Positions 29,823 to 35,504 of a DNA stretch of 64,000 nucleotides are shown here, one piece after another. The stretch lies in NCBI GenBank assembly GCA_017499595.2, contig CM039000.1, forward strand, positions 992,001 to 1,056,000, read 5' to 3'. Both the position numbers and the translations under genes were made by a program. Under the pieces are notes generated by a model. That model was not told the origin of the DNA and did not search any database. It worked only from the letters and a program-made list of their open reading frames with translations. This stretch comes from Psilocybe cubensis. Its lineage: Eukaryota. Numbering within the stretch: position 1 is the first letter of the stretch; every line of letters begins with the position of its first letter.

Positions 29823-30369
29823 GATTGTAACCTGTATCTCTTCCTCGAGCAGCCAGGAGTTGACTGGAGCTTATATAGCGACGCAAGAATATAGAATGAG
29901 TCTAGACACAGCGTAATTATATCCCAGCATATGCTGATATAGCTCATGGATGGACCAGAACACCTTCCGATAAGTCGCCAGCAAGGCCAAAATAACGTGT
30001 GCGGTCCGATGCTTTAGGTATCGATAAGCAGAAGAGAAACTTGGAGGCTCCTGTATGTCCACCTACACGTCTAACCTCGCGTACCGAGTCGAATGGCTAA
30101 AGAGACGCAAGCCTCTATCGAAGATGAGCTAGAAGTGCCTCTTCCGACTGACTCTTGAGGCGTTCGCCGATAGGAGAGAAGATGCCAAATTTAGTCCGAT
30201 AGGATGAATGGTGGCAGTGCCACTGCAAATCTTATCAGATAAGATTGATGACATCAATTAATGCTCTTCGAGTCAGTTCTTACTCTTTCCATCCCCATCA
30301 ATTCATATCGCGATTAACCAAACCCTCATCCACTTACATCTTTATAAATCTCAAAAGCAAAATACCAAT

Positions 30370-31510
30370 ATGCCACCAAAGGGTGGTAATGCAAAGAAAG
30401 AGAGCGGAAGGGCCAAAAAGGCAGAAAATGAAGCAAAGAAGCAGGAGGCAGCTGCAGCCGAGAAGGTAAACGTCGATCTGTATGATTTATAAACTTGAAC
30501 TCATACTTACCGCTCTTCCATCTCATATCAAATTCACACATCATAGGAGCGCAAAGAAGCCGAGAAGTGGGTTGACAAGGATGTAAAGGGAGGAAAGGCG
30601 AAACAAGAAGAGAAGGAAGAGAAGCGCAAGGCTGAGTTGGCACGCAAAGCCGAGAACGCGCGTCTCCTAGCAGAAGAAGAAAAGGCGGCCGCCTCATCCA
30701 AACCAAAGGCTGCATCAGGACCAAAGAAGAAGGCAGCTGCGACACCCAAGCCTGCTGGCCCTGGAGCTATCGCTGCTGGTGGGGGACTGGGAGGACCGTC
30801 TAATCCCAAGGCGAAGGAGCCGACGCCGGAGGTGGAGAGTTACGCTGCGACTGGCATTGATAATGCCCTGGATCTGCTCGAGGTTGTCACTGCGAAGATG
30901 GACAAAGCAAGCGTTGGGCAGCAGGCCGCTGGGATCGAGAGACATCCTGAGGTACGATCGTGTTTTTCTTGATTGATACCGTGTTTAATCACTTGATTTC
31001 TTTTTGTACAGCGTCGGTTTAAAGTATGTCAAGTTTTTCTGAAGATTTATGAATATCAAAATAATATGCACACCCTCAGGCCGCCTTCGAAGCATACCAA
31101 GAACGAGAAATGCCCAGAGTCAAAGAAGAGGTAACCTACTTCCCCTTGCTCACTCCGTCTATGACGCAATGCCTAAACACTCTTTTTCTTCCTTAGAACC
31201 CTGGCCTGCGGCTGCAACAATACAAGGTTCTTATCTATCTCATTTCAACTTGTCCCAAATATCCTAATGTCAACCTAAAATCTACAGGATCTATTGTACA
31301 AACAATTCCAGAAATCACCCGACAATCCGTAAGTACACCACCATCATGCATCTCATTTTACCATGCTCTGCATTTGTTGTTGTTTTAATACGCGTCTTTT
31401 CCAGATTCAATCAAGTCACAATCGAGTACAACGCGACAAAGGACGACAAAGTCGAGGCGCTCAAGGCAAAACAGGCGCAAATCGAACAGCGTCTGCGCGA
31501 ACACAAGTAG
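30370..31510 (+). CDS. CCDC124/Lso2/Oxs1-like (DUF1014) protein
   Basis: MPPKGGNAKKESGRAKKAENE..., ATGIDNALD, ERHPE|RRFK|AAFEAY, PGLRLQQYK, FQKSPDNPFNQ; several very small exons. Confidence 0.85.
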
Positions 31511-32351
31511 GATCGATATTACGTGCATCATTGCATTCAAAATTACGACCTTATCTGTTGCCGTAAACTTCGAGTATCTATCATTCCATGAGTACACTCA
31601 TCTAGATTCAAAAAATGGTTTCATTTCATCTGCCATGTTTGTTCATCAATCTCTAGTTCATATAAGTATGGGGTTACTATAAAACCTCAGTTCAGTGTAC
31701 TCTTTATCGACGATCATCATCATCAGACAGCAACCTCGCCATCCGAGATCACCTTTTCCGAGTTACAGTCCACTTGTAGGTAGGTTAGTAGCGGAATGTC
31801 CATCTCAGTAAACCGGTTTCTGAAAACTTGATGCTATCAAAACGCCACCTTCACTCGTCCTCGTACGCGTGAGGATGACGTTTGACGCTGATAGGCCCGG
31901 CCAGTGCTATCGACGATCACAGAATGTCAATGTCAATGCTCACGAGCAAGGGATGAGCGCTGATCCTGCTCTTTCTTAATCCATCATATCACCAGGGATC
32001 ATTGAAATCAACAGACTGACGTTGAACGAAATTGAGACGTTCAACGGAATCCATAAATTATGGTAACAACCGCGACGCGAATAGATATAGTTACAAGTGT
32101 AAGGAAGTGGTACTATTTATACAACTAAAACAAGATATACAGAAAAAAATAAACCAAGAACGAAGAGAGAACCGACAACATGCAAAAAATTTAGAGGAGT
32201 AGATATAGTGGTAGCAATAAGTAACCCAGGAGCGTCTAGCACTGTGCCGCAGGATTTCAGAGAGTATCATACAAAGTATTCCTGTAGAAAGAATGGGAAT
32301 AGGTCAGCTTCCGTGGTCGTTGTTAATTTAAGACGAGTCGGGCAGCATCGA

Positions 32352-32431
32352 TAAGATCAGTATTTAAAAGGCAATATTCGTTTTGTCTCCACAAGAGTCA
32401 GAACAGGTCTGAATGTGTATCATCCCGCAAG
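32352..32431 (-). ncRNA. Box C/D snoRNA, snR56/U25(SNORD25)-like, copy 2 (intron 32477-32282)
   Basis: Minus strand: C-like GGGATGA (32426-32420), guide CAGACCTGTT followed by D' CTGA, ATATTGCC element, D box CTGA (32360-32357). The guide is complementary to conserved 18S AACAGGUCUG. Confidence 0.8.
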
Positions 32432-32592
32432 CGATGGGCCGTGTGTAAAGGGGGGGTAGAAAGGAGCAAGAACTCACGGGTATGTTTAGGTAATCAATAC
32501 AGTAGGTGTTGTAGAGCAAGAACCTAAGGGGAGAAGTAGGATATTAGTATGAGTCGAATAGGGGATAATTGTGGAAGGACGTGTAAAAACAA

Positions 32593-32670
32593 AGGATCAG
32601 AATTAAAAGGCAATATCGGTTTGTCCTCAAAAAAATTCGGAACAGGTCTGATAATGTTTCATCATACGAT
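32593..32670 (-). ncRNA. Box C/D snoRNA, snR56/U25(SNORD25)-like, copy 1 (intron 32743-32524)
   Basis: Minus strand: C box ATGATGA (32665-32659), guide CAGACCTGTT followed by D' CCGA, C' TGAGGA, ATATTGCC, D box CTGA (32600-32597). Confidence 0.88.
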
Positions 32671-32764
32671 GGCGAGAGGACAGGAGGAAGAAGGTAAAGA
32701 TAGAAAGAGCACAATGATGATCGTCAGGGCGCAAATGACTCACAATAGAGCAAGAAGGAGGGCA

Positions 32765-33547
32765 CTAGTTGGAGGAGATAGGTGGAGGCATGGCGGTGGC
32801 GAAGGACCTCCATTTCTCTCTTGCCGGCGCAGTCTCGCCGTACACCCACTGGTCTTCCGAAATTTCGACTGTAAGATGCGCGTCGCAGTCCTCGACGTAC
32901 ACCCCTACACCGGACCCGTCCATGGGGTCCAGCAACTGCTCGAAGGCTGGTTGCTCTTCGAACGTCTGCAGCCTGCGGAGAGCCTGAATAAGGTCGTCGG
33001 CCAGGGGCGTGGCGTTCGGAGGGTCCTCTTTGATCTGTTCCCACCCCACAGGGGGTGAGCCAGGAGGCGAGATGAGGAAGTTCTTCTCGATCGCAGGAGG
33101 CTTCAAGTAGCTCGTGGTGGGGATCCAGGAGCGTTCGCCTCGTGGAATTAGGGGGTTAGGATCCGCACGGTACACGCGCAGCACAATCTGAGAGCTGAAA
33201 AAGATACACCCAAGTCAGCATGAGAGGATTCGGGATAGTTGAGCATAAAAGCGATCTGGAGAGAAGTCTCACCTGTCGAAGCCGCCATCGATGATGATGG
33301 GGTCGCTTTTGGCTTTTGCCAACTCCGCGTGGTGATCGTACTCATAAACGATGATAACGCGTCCAAAACCCGGGAGGGGTACCCACTGGTTGATATCACC
33401 AAAGGACGCAAAATGGTCGCGCAGCATGTTCAAAATCAACGGGTCAAAAAAGGACTTTGGCAGCGAGGTCACCGCCAGGGTGTTTGTGGGCTCAAGAACG
33501 GGAGGAGAAGAGGGCTCTGCGGGAGCTGTGAGGAACATTCTGGCCAT
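32765..33547 (-). CDS. RCN1: Calcipressin (RCAN/Rcn1 family calcineurin regulator), 2 coding exons
   Basis: RRM-like N-terminus, KNFLISPPGSPPVGWEQIKED signature, C-terminal TAMPP. Confidence 0.9.
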
Positions 33548-35504
33548 GGTTGCGGAGGTGAATTGGGGAAAGGGAGAAGAGGGCGGGTGGAGGAGAAGAT
33601 TGCGTTGGGCCGTCTCTTAAAGGTAATTTTTAAGGCTTTTCCCGAATTACATAATCTAGGTATCAATATATAGCTGTGCAGTTTATAATCGATGGTCCCC
33701 ACCCTCAATATTTCAATTGCTGTGAGCCTGTGGCACAGCACCAGTGACGGTGTTCTATCTTAATTTTTTCGCAGTCCAGCCAAGGTCAACTTTCCGATAT
33801 CGCAGCATTCAACAAAGGACCTGTGCTGAATTCAGAGTTTTCTCGTCCAAAAGGACTGCCCACTGTGTACACCGGCATGTCAGGAAAAGTTGCCGGACAG
33901 ACATTTCTTAGACATCTCGTCTGCGGCACACAGAATGCAATACACGAGGTAGTTGCATATATAGCATTGCCACTGGACTACTTAAATCGATTGACAAGGT
34001 ACGTTGAAAGATATTATTGCCATCTATTACCTCTGAACTTCGGCAAAACTGTGACATAGATTTTGTATACATACAATTGTGGGTAATCAAAGACATTCAA
34101 TTTTAAGGCGAGCCGTTGCGCCAAATATGGTGATCATGGCAAACATCTAAAGTACCTAAAAAGTGCTTTATATTGTGAAGAAATTGACCTTGTTCATCAA
34201 TTTTCACGAGCAGGATCTTCACCCAAAAATTTGGCGGTGGTCATAAAAAATTGCTAAAATCTCGGAAACTCATTACCTGCCTTGGCTTCGAGTTTTTAGA
34301 TAGCTTTCAATACTCTTTTTGTGTCCTAAAATTTAAAAGAACTATCAACATAATCAGAACGCATGATAACTGACCGTACTAATCTTGTTGTGCGACTCTG
34401 TGGATAGAGATATACTTGGATTAGCTTGGATTTCTGCCAATTAACTGAATTTAAAAGCCAGAATTCCCATGTCGTGTTAACCAAACCAAATTACACATTT
34501 TTACTATAGGTGTACCAGCCATATCCATGTAATCTGCTTAGGAATTTGTGCACTGACTCACAAAGACATTGACGTATTTTTAGCAGAACACGTTGTCAAC
34601 ACGTTATTATGCTCGGATTTGACATAGCAATACGCAGGTTTCTAGCGTGGAGTAAGGACGCACAGCTTAGCTCAACTTGATATCGAAATATCTGTATTCT
34701 CGGTAATGATGACTGACTGTAACTGCCTTCCATATAACGGGCCGCAATTTCAGCGATAAAGGCTGGATATTATGCTTCCTCAGAAGCAGTTCTGTATACA
34801 ACGAGGAACTTTCTGCACACATCTTACCCCGGAAAATCAAATGTACGGATTGTAAGTGGGAATATGTGATACGTCGATGCCCTTACATGTAGATATGGGT
34901 CGCCTATGACAAGCAAATAAGCTGATAGGGGTAGTTAAATTTAAGCAGTTGTTCGACTAGACTAGTCATACTGTGAGAGAATTCAAGAAGTGCTGGCAAG
35001 AAACAATATCCACCAATAACTCCTCATTTTGCCCCCCTGCGAATAAATGGCTTGATCATAATAAAGCAGAGTCTAGCATAACACAATCTCAGTATTATAT
35101 TATGGCATCTAAGTACATTTTTCTACAAGAAGAGCACGTACAAATGATTATCCGACAATTGGTGGAAAGAAAGCAGGTGCAAGGCTGAATCATGATTGCA
35201 TCATCCATCACATCAGATTTGCCTGGTTCTAGTACGACACAGTTCCGCAGAAAATGTAAAAATACAGGTTAGTATGATATGATTTATCCCATAGTGACAT
35301 AGTCAGAGTAAATACAGAGTTTCGTCTCAATAATGTCAACTTCGTTATTGCGGATCGGACAAAAAAGTCAGTTGGTCACGTGTGTGGTTCGTTTTGATGA
35401 CATCACTATTAATGTCCGTGCGCAACGCGGACCATGTGCACGGCGCACAGAGCACACCGCAGCAGGCAGTGGCAGCACAACGCCTTCCTTATCCTATCTC
35501 TGCG

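What the first reader, a model, noticed from the sequence alone, without database searches (positions are those of the whole stretch)
32282..32764. Two duplicated snR56/U25-like snoRNAs, each in its own 3'-UTR intron of calcipressin
Seen: downstream of the RCN1 stop the minus strand has two complete introns. One is GTGAGT 32743...TACTAAT...TAG 32524, the other GTGAGT 32477...GCTGAC...CAG 32282, separated by a 46-nt non-coding exon. Each holds one ~75-nt C/D cassette with the same guide CAGACCTGTT next to D', while the spacers have diverged. Known: this guide pairs with 18S AACAGGUCUG, and the D'+5 rule targets the G methylated by yeast snR56 (Gm1428) and human U25 (Gm1490). The shared TATTGCCT could pair with the adjacent 18S AGGCAAUA. 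Inference: an rRNA-modification guide is co-produced with a calcineurin feedback regulator, which is not a typical snoRNA host, possibly tying Ca2+/calcineurin signalling to ribosome modification.
Basis: partly seen in the sequence, partly recalled or inferred. Interest (0 to 1): 0.8.

Follow-up and report, generated by a model that had tools for sequence, protein, structure and literature searches.

The report
Two snoRNAs in calcipressin 3'UTR introns
A mushroom-forming fungus carries two copies of a ribosomal-RNA methylation guide (snR56/U25 family), each inside its own spliced intron in the 3' untranslated region of the calcipressin gene, and many related fungi share this layout.

Summary
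Rfam finds two snR56-family box C/D snoRNAs on the minus strand. Copy 1 (32669-32595) scores 58.6 bits, above the curated cut-off of 54. Copy 2 (32430-32355) scores 48.4 bits, below it. The upstream gene is a two-exon calcipressin (Pfam PF04847).

One 1008-base spliced RNA contig from a public run joins both coding exons, the 21-nt UTR stub, the 46-nt mini-exon and the last exon. It removes exactly 32743-32524 and 32477-32282, so the snoRNA introns belong to the calcipressin transcript.

The layout is old. Of 80 metagenomic calcipressin loci, 62 carry at least one such cassette just downstream on the same strand, and 43 carry two. The positive loci include Agaricales-like and Russulales-like lineages. 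Six well-covered loci have none. The cassettes are islands of conservation (76-81% identity against 21-44% for the surrounding UTR and intron).

The most likely mechanism is splicing-dependent release of guides for 18S Gm at the yeast G1428 equivalent, helped by accessory pairing.

The proposed link between calcineurin signalling and ribosome modification is untested. An NMD consequence of the second junction (67 nt past the stop) is only inferred.

I rate this a new member of a known kind, of moderate interest.

The parts
33273..33547 (-). Calcipressin coding exon 1 (ATG at 33547)
   Evidence: ORF. Pfam PF04847 E 5.4e-8. Covered by the spliced RNA contig up to 33533.
33195..33272 (-). Coding-region intron, 78 nt, GT..AG
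   Evidence: Joint skipping 78 bases in X1 and X2 contigs. Sequence.
32765..33194 (-). Calcipressin coding exon 2 with stop TAG at 32767-32765
   Evidence: Pfam PF04847 E 1.4e-20. 195 homologues at E<=0.001 among 621 candidates.
32744..32764 (-). First 21 nt of the 3'UTR, up to the first UTR 5' splice site
   Evidence: Sequence. Joint at 32742/32743.
32524..32743 (-). 3'UTR intron 1, 220 nt, GTGAGT...TACTAAT...TAG
   Evidence: Removed in X1 record 3. Its 3' part is retained in X2 record 7.
32595..32669 (-). snoRNA copy 1: C box AUGAUGA, guide CAGACCUGUU, D' CCGA, C' UGAGGA, accessory UAUUGCCU, D box CUGA
   Evidence: Rfam RF01188 58.6 bits, above the gathering score of 54.
32543..32549 (-). 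Predicted branch site of intron 1 (TACTAAT). Branch A at 32544, 53 nt after the D box end and 20 nt before the 3' splice site
   Evidence: Read from the sequence. This is a consensus match, not mapped.
32478..32523 (-). 46-nt non-coding mini-exon
   Evidence: Piece 32477-32521 of X1 record 3, between two joints.
32282..32477 (-). 3'UTR intron 2, 196 nt, GTGAGT...GCTGAC...CAG
   Evidence: Joint in both X1 and X2 contigs.
32355..32430 (-). snoRNA copy 2: C box GGAUGA variant, same guide, D' CUGA, C' UGGAGA, accessory UAUUGCCU, D box CUGA
   Evidence: Rfam RF01188 48.4 bits, E 4.8e-5 in 2 kb, below the gathering score. The GGAUGA C box is the commonest form among relatives.
32303..32308 (-). Predicted branch site of intron 2 (GCTGAC). 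Branch A at 32304, 53 nt after the D box end and 22 nt before the 3' splice site
   Evidence: Read from the sequence. This is a consensus match, not mapped.
32032..32281 (-). Last 3'UTR exon (minimum extent; the RNA contig ends at 32032)
   Evidence: Piece 32032-32280 of X1 record 3.

Best explanation
This is a dual-output gene. RNA polymerase II transcribes calcipressin together with a 3'UTR that holds two introns. Each intron carries one box C/D snoRNA of the snR56/U25 family. Splicing yields the calcipressin mRNA and two lariats. After debranching, exonucleases trim each intron back to the snoRNP-protected cassette of about 75 nt. Each snoRNP then uses the guide upstream of D' to direct 2'-O-methylation of the 18S G that corresponds to yeast G1428, in the decoding-centre A-site region. 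The conserved element upstream of the D box pairs with the adjoining rRNA stretch as accessory pairing, not as a second methylation guide. Shown here: the identity of the cassettes, the host gene, splicing of both introns from a CDS-bearing RNA, and conservation of the layout. Inferred: accumulation of the mature snoRNAs, the processing route and the methylation itself.
For: Identity of the cassettes: Rfam snR56 at 58.6 and 48.4 bits. The guide block is letter-identical to the family consensus over CAGACCUGU and the accessory block over UAUUGCCUUUU. The D'+5 position falls in the same register as in the consensus.

Host gene: Pfam calcipressin on both exons.

One transcript: X1 record 3 is 1008 nt. 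It runs 33533-33273, 33194-32742, 32521-32477 and 32280-32032, with three GT..AG joints. X2 shows the joints of the coding intron and of UTR intron 2.

Conservation: 62 of 80 related loci carry at least one cassette on the calcipressin strand just past the stop, and 43 of 80 carry two. Rfam independently finds 29 snR56 matches in 18 of the 20 loci tested. All are on the calcipressin strand and no other family matched.

Selection: against five relatives the cassettes keep 76% and 81% identity. The neighbouring intron and UTR segments keep 21-44%.

The unit moves with calcipressin. The CCDC124-like neighbour lies upstream in tandem in 44 loci and downstream convergent in 8, and the cassettes stay 3' of calcipressin in both layouts.

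Geometry: both D boxes end 53 nt before a consensus branch site. A review states that the splicing helicase AQR/IBP160, which couples splicing to C/D snoRNP assembly, binds about 50 nt upstream of the branch site (passages).

Literature: yeast snR56 guides 18S Gm1428 (table). Neurospora has two intronic snR56/U25 homologues, CD19 and CD41, for 18S Gm1423 (table). snR56 is listed among yeast snoRNAs with extra base-pairing next to the target site.
Against: No small-RNA data were available, so the mature 70-80-nt RNAs are not shown. All RNA evidence comes from assembled contigs of one study (two samples). The kind 'RNA' is the tool's guess, although the three spliced joints argue for cDNA. A 31-mer cannot span both UTR joints across the 46-nt exon, so removal of both introns from one molecule rests on an unbranched assembly.

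In X2 a contig runs from the mini-exon through the 3' splice site of intron 1 as far as 32643. Intron 1 is therefore not always removed, or precursors are abundant.

Copy 2 is below Rfam's gathering score. Copy 1 has a non-canonical D' (CCGA) and copy 2 a non-canonical C box (GGAUGA).

No 18S sequence of this organism could be read, so pairing to the target is inferred.

Six related loci with 633 to about 4000 bases downstream have no cassette, so the linkage is not universal.
Confidence: 0.85

Rival explanations
1. The snoRNA introns belong to a separate non-coding host transcript that starts inside or just after the calcipressin coding region. Most calcipressin mRNA would then end before or within intron 1.
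For: Contigs cannot show transcript starts (caveats). In X2 the CDS contig stops at 32747, just before the first UTR 5' splice site. A separate contig carries the mini-exon together with unspliced intron 1 sequence.
Against: The first UTR 5' splice site lies 21 nt after the stop codon, so its upstream exon must be coding sequence. X1 record 3 runs unbroken from 33533 through that joint. In 33 distinct two-cassette loci, including the window, a 5' splice-site motif lies 4-62 nt (median 23) after the stop. The cassettes follow calcipressin through an inversion relative to the neighbouring gene.
Confidence: 0.07
2. One copy, or both, is a decaying duplicate without function. Copy 2 has a C box with G in place of U. 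Copy 1 has D' CCGA.
For: Copy 2 scores below Rfam's gathering score. One Leucoagaricus gongylophorus-like group (L028, L029, L069) keeps a single cassette, while related loci keep two. The copies are therefore at least partly redundant.
Against: The GGAUGA C box is the commonest form among relatives: 26 of 35 upstream copies and 16 of 35 downstream copies. Both cassettes are far better conserved than their flanks. Downstream copies average 80% identity between loci. Reading the counts against the listing, every one of the 35 distinct pairs keeps at least one canonical CUGA D' box. van Nues et al. report that highly divergent C'/D' motifs are active (abstract).
Confidence: 0.1
3. The main selected role of the UTR introns is to control calcipressin, through EJC-dependent NMD or splicing-dependent expression. 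The snoRNAs would be passengers.
For: The second exon junction lies 67 nt after the stop in the window. It is predicted at 50 nt or more in 32 of 33 distinct two-cassette loci, though the 3' splice sites there are heuristic. Junctions at least 50 nt past a stop elicit NMD, and the EJC takes part in NMD in Neurospora (passages). Human snoRNA host genes are enriched among NMD targets (passages).
Against: Conservation sits in the cassettes, not in the rest of the introns or in the mini-exon. Among the 17 single-cassette rows, 11 put the only junction 5-26 nt after the stop and one puts it at 51 nt. In the other 5 rows (255-481 nt) an upstream cassette was probably missed. By the 50-nt rule, then, the single junction would not trigger NMD in most single-cassette lineages. 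The spliced contig has a depth figure as high as the neighbouring gene's in X1, although depth from contigs is a poor measure. NMD in these fungi was not tested.
Confidence: 0.15

Closest known systems
S. cerevisiae snR56, human SNORD25 (U25), plant snoR19, Neurospora crassa CD19 and CD41
   Same: Box C/D architecture, a length of about 75 nt, and a D' guide identical to the family consensus. The family target is 18S Gm1428 in yeast and Gm1423 in Neurospora. Neurospora also has two copies, both intronic. Accessory pairing next to the target is listed for snR56.
   Different: From recall, yeast snR56 is independently transcribed and human U25 sits in a non-coding multi-snoRNA host. Here both copies lie in 3'UTR introns of one protein-coding gene. 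The host genes of the Neurospora copies are not named in the text I read. They may be in supplements, which were closed.
Conserved intron-encoded snoRNAs in fungal protein-coding hosts (snR59 in RPL7, snR191 in NOG2)
   Same: One snoRNA per intron, and host and snoRNA are co-transcribed. The intron is kept across most fungi because of the snoRNA (passages of PMC8476143).
   Different: Those hosts act in ribosome biogenesis and their introns interrupt or precede coding sequence. Here the host is a calcineurin regulator and both introns lie after the stop codon.
Animal snoRNA host genes that are NMD substrates (Lykke-Andersen 2014, as cited in Colombo 2017)
   Same: snoRNAs are processed from excised introns. 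A 3'UTR intron more than 50 nt past the stop is the strongest NMD predictor. NMD is proposed to uncouple snoRNA output from host output (passages).
   Different: NMD sensitivity of this mRNA was not tested, and the first junction is too close to the stop to count.
Neurospora 3'UTR-intron / EJC-dependent NMD (Zhang and Sachs 2015)
   Same: It is a fungal precedent that spliced 3'UTR introns can control mRNA stability. I saw it only as cited in a review.
   Different: Those cases involve no snoRNA. I did not read the paper itself.

Membership tests
Rfam RF01188 snR56 (clan CL00049, with U25) | Covariance-model score at or above the curated gathering score (54 bits) | tested here: met
   Copy 1 scores 58.6 bits.
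Rfam RF01188 snR56 (clan CL00049, with U25) | The same score test applied to copy 2 | tested here: not met
   Copy 2 scores 48.4 bits, below 54, though E is 4.8e-5 in the 2-kb search and the match spans the full model, 1-84. It is a family-like paralogue by every other feature.
Box C/D snoRNA | C box RUGAUGA near the 5' end and D box CUGA near the 3' end | tested here: met
   Copy 1 has AUGAUGA and CUGA. Copy 2 has GGGAUGA (U to G at position 2) and CUGA. The GGAUGA variant is found in 42 of 70 related cassettes.
Box C/D snoRNA | Internal D' and C' boxes | tested here: inconclusive
   D' is CCGA in copy 1 and CUGA in copy 2. C' is UGAGGA in copy 1 and UGGAGA in copy 2. These are degenerate, as is common. 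Their activity was not testable.
snR56/U25 functional class (guide for 18S Gm1428 equivalent) | A guide of at least 10 nt upstream of D' that is complementary to 18S and places the target G opposite the fifth nucleotide from D' | tested here: inconclusive
   The guide is identical to the family consensus and in the same register. The family target comes from the literature. No 18S sequence of this organism was available from any tool.
snR56/U25 functional class | Accumulation as a stable RNA of about 75 nt bound by fibrillarin, and methylation of the target | not testable with these tools
   No small-RNA or RiboMeth data were available. Contigs cannot show small RNAs.
Intron-encoded snoRNA, one per intron | The cassette lies inside a spliced intron of a polymerase II host transcript, on the sense strand | tested here: met
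   GT..AG joints remove 32743-32524 and 32477-32282 from a CDS-bearing contig. Both cassettes are on the host strand.
Intron-encoded snoRNA, splicing-dependent assembly | The cassette ends about 50 nt upstream of the branch site | tested here: met
   The distance is 53 nt for both copies, measured to consensus branch motifs. The reference value comes from a review passage. The branch sites are predicted, not mapped.
Calcipressin (Pfam PF04847) for the host | Pfam score above the curated cut-off | tested here: met
   33.3 bits and 74.3 bits against a cut-off of 23.5 for the two exons.

The most novel reading that the evidence does not exclude
The link between calcipressin and snR56 could be a conserved regulatory device and not just a convenient host. 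Two routes are possible. In the first, the snoRNA-bearing 3'UTR introns place the calcineurin feedback regulator under EJC/NMD and splicing control, with the second junction predicted at least 50 nt past the stop in 32 of 33 distinct two-cassette loci. In the second, calcineurin-dependent transcription of calcipressin sets the supply of the guide for a decoding-centre 2'-O-methyl group. That would give stress-dependent ribosome heterogeneity in mushroom-forming fungi.
Probability: 0.1. Interest if true: 0.7.

Novelty: new member of a known kind. Interest (0 to 1): 0.42.

Why it matters
The locus gives a base-accurate annotation of a gene that pipelines get wrong. Several public gene models fuse calcipressin with its CCDC124-like neighbour, and none that I saw names the snoRNAs. 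It shows that a snoRNA pair can stay tied to a host unrelated to translation, in 3'UTR introns, across lineages whose calcipressins are only about 50-80% identical. It also offers a simple system for asking whether 3'UTR snoRNA introns make a fungal mRNA sensitive to NMD, and whether snoRNA supply follows a signalling-regulated promoter. A full-text search for 'calcipressin' together with 'snoRNA' returned 3 unrelated papers. The fungal snoRNAome survey never uses the term 'host gene' in its main text; its supplements were closed and may list these loci.

Tried and rejected
1. Whole-genome search: no genome is held for this window.
2. RNA holders: no listed holder is on record as RNA. X1 and X2 are labelled 'RNA?' as a guess. 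I used them because their contigs carry spliced joints.
4. External stems flanking the cassettes: RNAalifold on ten downstream copies with flanks found no flank-to-flank helix and no compensatory pair. Duplex energies of each cassette's own 5' and 3' flanks were no better than mismatched flank pairs (upstream copies -1.5 against -1.7 kcal/mol; downstream copies -4.7 against -4.2). Only WIN, L011, L012, L016 and L020 downstream copies have strong flank pairing, -9.8 to -12.4. I rejected this as a general feature.
5. Splicing in a second species: four short contigs (L005, L006, L010, L019) lack the coding intron relative to their nearest genomic loci and carry no cassette. Their UTRs are too diverged to map junctions. 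L006 against L001 gave only a co-linear chain of 8-13-nt matches with E 0.07-4. This is suggestive, not evidence.
6. Dating the duplication: the cassette tree has 77 columns. The upstream/downstream label needs 3 changes against 23.6 in shuffles (0 of 500 shuffles as low). The five upstream copies of the window's own group sit among downstream copies, which could mean gene conversion or re-duplication. This is unresolved.
7. Compensation between the stop-to-5'ss distance and the mini-exon length: Spearman -0.22, p 0.22, so not supported.
9. Two paper searches failed on term syntax. One search was re-sent in corrected form; one search was not re-sent.
10. Weak Rfam hits in the region (snR61, NEAT1_2, Afu_294 and others, all far below their cut-offs) were dismissed.

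Full report
THE OBSERVATION

On the minus strand a calcipressin gene runs from ATG 33547 to TAG 32767-32765. It has one 78-nt coding intron, 33272-33195. Both exons match Pfam PF04847, with E 5.4e-8 and 1.4e-20.

Downstream lie, in order:
- 21 nt of UTR;
- an intron at 32743-32524 (GTGAGT...TACTAAT...TAG);
- a 46-nt exon;
- a second intron at 32477-32282 (GTGAGT...GCTGAC...CAG).

Each intron holds one box C/D cassette. A composite pattern built from the C-box core, the guide with D', and the second conserved block matches exactly twice in 64 kb. It matched none of 100 shuffles.

Rfam at gathering threshold reports a single family in the whole window: snR56 at 32669-32595, 58.6 bits against a cut-off of 54. 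A local search adds 32430-32355 at 48.4 bits, E 4.8e-5. That match is full-length but below the cut-off.

ARE THE INTRONS PART OF THE CALCIPRESSIN TRANSCRIPT?

The run search listed five holders from two studies. None is on record as RNA. Two small runs of one study (X1, X2) held about half of the sampled words, as exons alone would.

Laid on 31500-33800, X1 gives one 1008-nt contig made of four pieces: 32032-32280, 32477-32521, 32742-33194 and 33273-33533. It therefore has three joints, of 196, 220 and 78 bases. Each reads CT..AC on the plus strand, which is GT..AG on the gene's strand.

X2 shows the coding-intron joint and the intron-2 joint. Its mini-exon contig, however, runs on through the 3' splice site of intron 1 to 32643, so some RNA retains intron 1. 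X3 and X4 are unspliced DNA contigs, and X3 may be the source of the window.

Caveats:
- These are assembled contigs from one study.
- They cannot show transcript starts, ends or small RNAs.
- A 31-mer cannot bridge both UTR joints.

Even so, the first UTR 5' splice site is only 21 nt past the stop, so its upstream exon is coding sequence.

CONSERVATION

The nearest named calcipressins are from Agaricales. Tephrocybe sp. is the best named hit, at 71% over exon 2.

I scanned the metagenome collection with an alignment of 43 calcipressins. It matched 207 stretches, of which 177 were confirmed and the best 80 were kept.

A motif scan found a complete cassette (C-like box, guide core, D box) on the calcipressin strand, beginning 33-100 nt after the stop for the first copy and 239-310 nt for the second. 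This held in 62 of 80 loci, and 43 of 80 had two cassettes.

The 18 loci without a complete cassette fall into four groups:
- one cut-off partial cassette (L017);
- four contigs with at most 78 bases after the stop, or no stop in the contig (L024, L036, L066, L070);
- seven short contigs (1.0-1.6 kb) with an uninterrupted coding region. Four of these (L005, L006, L010, L019) lack the coding intron of their nearest genomic relatives and so look like cDNA;
- six contigs with 633 to about 4000 bases downstream and nothing there (L067, L073, L074, L075, L079, L080).

Rfam confirmed both sides. At E<=1 it found no snR56 match in those six loci or in the seven short contigs. At E<=0.1 it found 29 snR56 matches in 18 of 20 positive loci. 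All were on the calcipressin strand, and no other family matched.

By best named hit, the positive loci include:
- Leucoagaricus gongylophorus-like contigs (92%);
- Amanita-like contigs (69-72%);
- a large group nearest to the russuloid Dentipellis (51-66%).

The six negative loci are nearest to Polyporales, but only at about 50-55%. These are rough placements.

SELECTION AND LINKAGE

In an alignment with five relatives, the cassettes keep 76% and 81% identity to the window. The intron flanks, the mini-exon and the UTR exons keep 21-44%.

The CCDC124/LSO1-2-like neighbour lies upstream in tandem in 44 loci and downstream convergent in 8. The window is of the convergent type. The cassettes stay 3' of calcipressin in both layouts, which argues that they belong to its transcription unit.

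THE TWO COPIES

Downstream copies resemble one another between loci (mean 80%) more than they resemble their own upstream partner (mean 71%). On a cassette tree the position label needs 3 changes, against 23.6 in shuffles. The pair is therefore old.

The window's own group is an exception. Its upstream copies sit among the downstream ones, and with only 77 columns this cannot be resolved.

Box variants are systematic:
- GGAUGA is the commonest C box.
- Upstream copies have D' CCGA in 17 of 35 pairs.
- Downstream copies have D' CUGU in 13 of 35 pairs.

Read against the listing, every pair keeps at least one canonical CUGA D'. One L. gongylophorus-like group has a single cassette. This pattern fits partial redundancy.

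MECHANISM

The guide block is identical to the snR56 consensus and sits in the same register relative to D'.

Yeast snR56 directs 18S Gm1428 near the decoding-centre A site (table). The two intronic Neurospora homologues direct Gm1423, and the same table lists U25 and snoR19 as the human and plant counterparts.

The second shared block ends eight nucleotides from the D box, so it cannot place a target at D+5. It fits the 'extra base-pairing' class, in which snR56 is listed.

The cassettes lack general flanking stems. Both D boxes end 53 nt before a consensus branch site. That is close to the roughly 50-nt position at which the spliceosomal helicase AQR/IBP160 links splicing to C/D snoRNP assembly.

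The likely route is splicing, then debranching, then exonucleolytic trimming (figure legend). All of this is inferred and none of it was observed.

No 18S sequence of this organism was available, so pairing to the target rests on family identity.

POSSIBLE CONSEQUENCE FOR THE HOST

The first junction is 21 nt past the stop and the second is 67 nt past it. With heuristic 3' splice sites, the second junction falls at 50 nt or more in 32 of 33 distinct two-cassette loci. Most single-cassette loci have their only junction at 5-26 nt.

Junctions at least 50 nt past a stop can elicit NMD. The EJC acts in Neurospora NMD, and human snoRNA hosts are enriched among NMD targets.

Whether this mRNA is an NMD substrate is open. 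The single-cassette lineages argue against NMD being the reason the layout is kept.

VERDICT

The proposed tie to calcineurin signalling remains an untested idea.

The elements are of known kinds: the snR56/U25 family, one snoRNA per intron, and a protein-coding host. The placement in two 3'UTR introns of a signalling regulator, kept over long evolutionary distance, has not been reported in the literature I could search.

Noticed in passing
window 30262-31780 (+); loci L007-L080: A CCDC124/LSO1-2-like gene lies convergent to calcipressin in the window (Pfam LSO1_2-like, 28 bits against a cut-off of 27, on 30547-30972). In 44 of the 52 loci that hold it, it lies upstream in tandem. In 8 it is downstream and convergent, as in the window, which suggests a local inversion. 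Several public gene models fuse the two genes into one protein (P0004, P0007, P0009, P0010, P0040, P0065).
   Followed up: partly
L041-L047, L050, L052, L053, L057, L059-L061, L063, L064, L068 (upstream cassette): In the Russulales-like group, 12 of 35 distinct pairs have an upstream copy that keeps the D' guide but replaces the accessory block with a different, conserved 13-14-nt element ending three nucleotides from the D box. From memory its reverse complement matches the 5' domain of 18S rRNA near yeast position 49. That would be a new predicted methylation target. It was not checked with any tool.
   Followed up: no
L012, L016, L020, L030-L039, L041-L068 (upstream cassette): Many upstream copies carry a short GC-rich hairpin between D' and C'. 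The window's upstream copy has a U-run there instead.
   Followed up: no
window 32477-32643 (-): The X2 contig retains the 3' part of intron 1, including half of snoRNA copy 1, and stops inside the cassette. It also has a 1-base deletion in the T-run at 32629 and an A>C change at 32589 relative to the window. X1 and X2 share several other single-base differences, so they come from another strain.
   Followed up: no
window 31837-32021: Low-depth RNA contigs (depth 9-12) cover the gap between the 3' ends of the two convergent genes. This may be read-through or overlapping 3' ends.
   Followed up: no
L028, L029, L069 versus L030-L039, L049: Contigs 90-92% identical in calcipressin to Leucoagaricus gongylophorus have one cassette. 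Related Leucoagaricus-like contigs (78-89%) have two, which implies a recent loss of the downstream copy.
   Followed up: partly
L010 1394-1612 (-): A cDNA-like contig joins a spliced calcipressin coding region to the 3' end of the convergent CCDC124-like gene. This would be expected if the two transcripts overlap or were merged in assembly.
   Followed up: no
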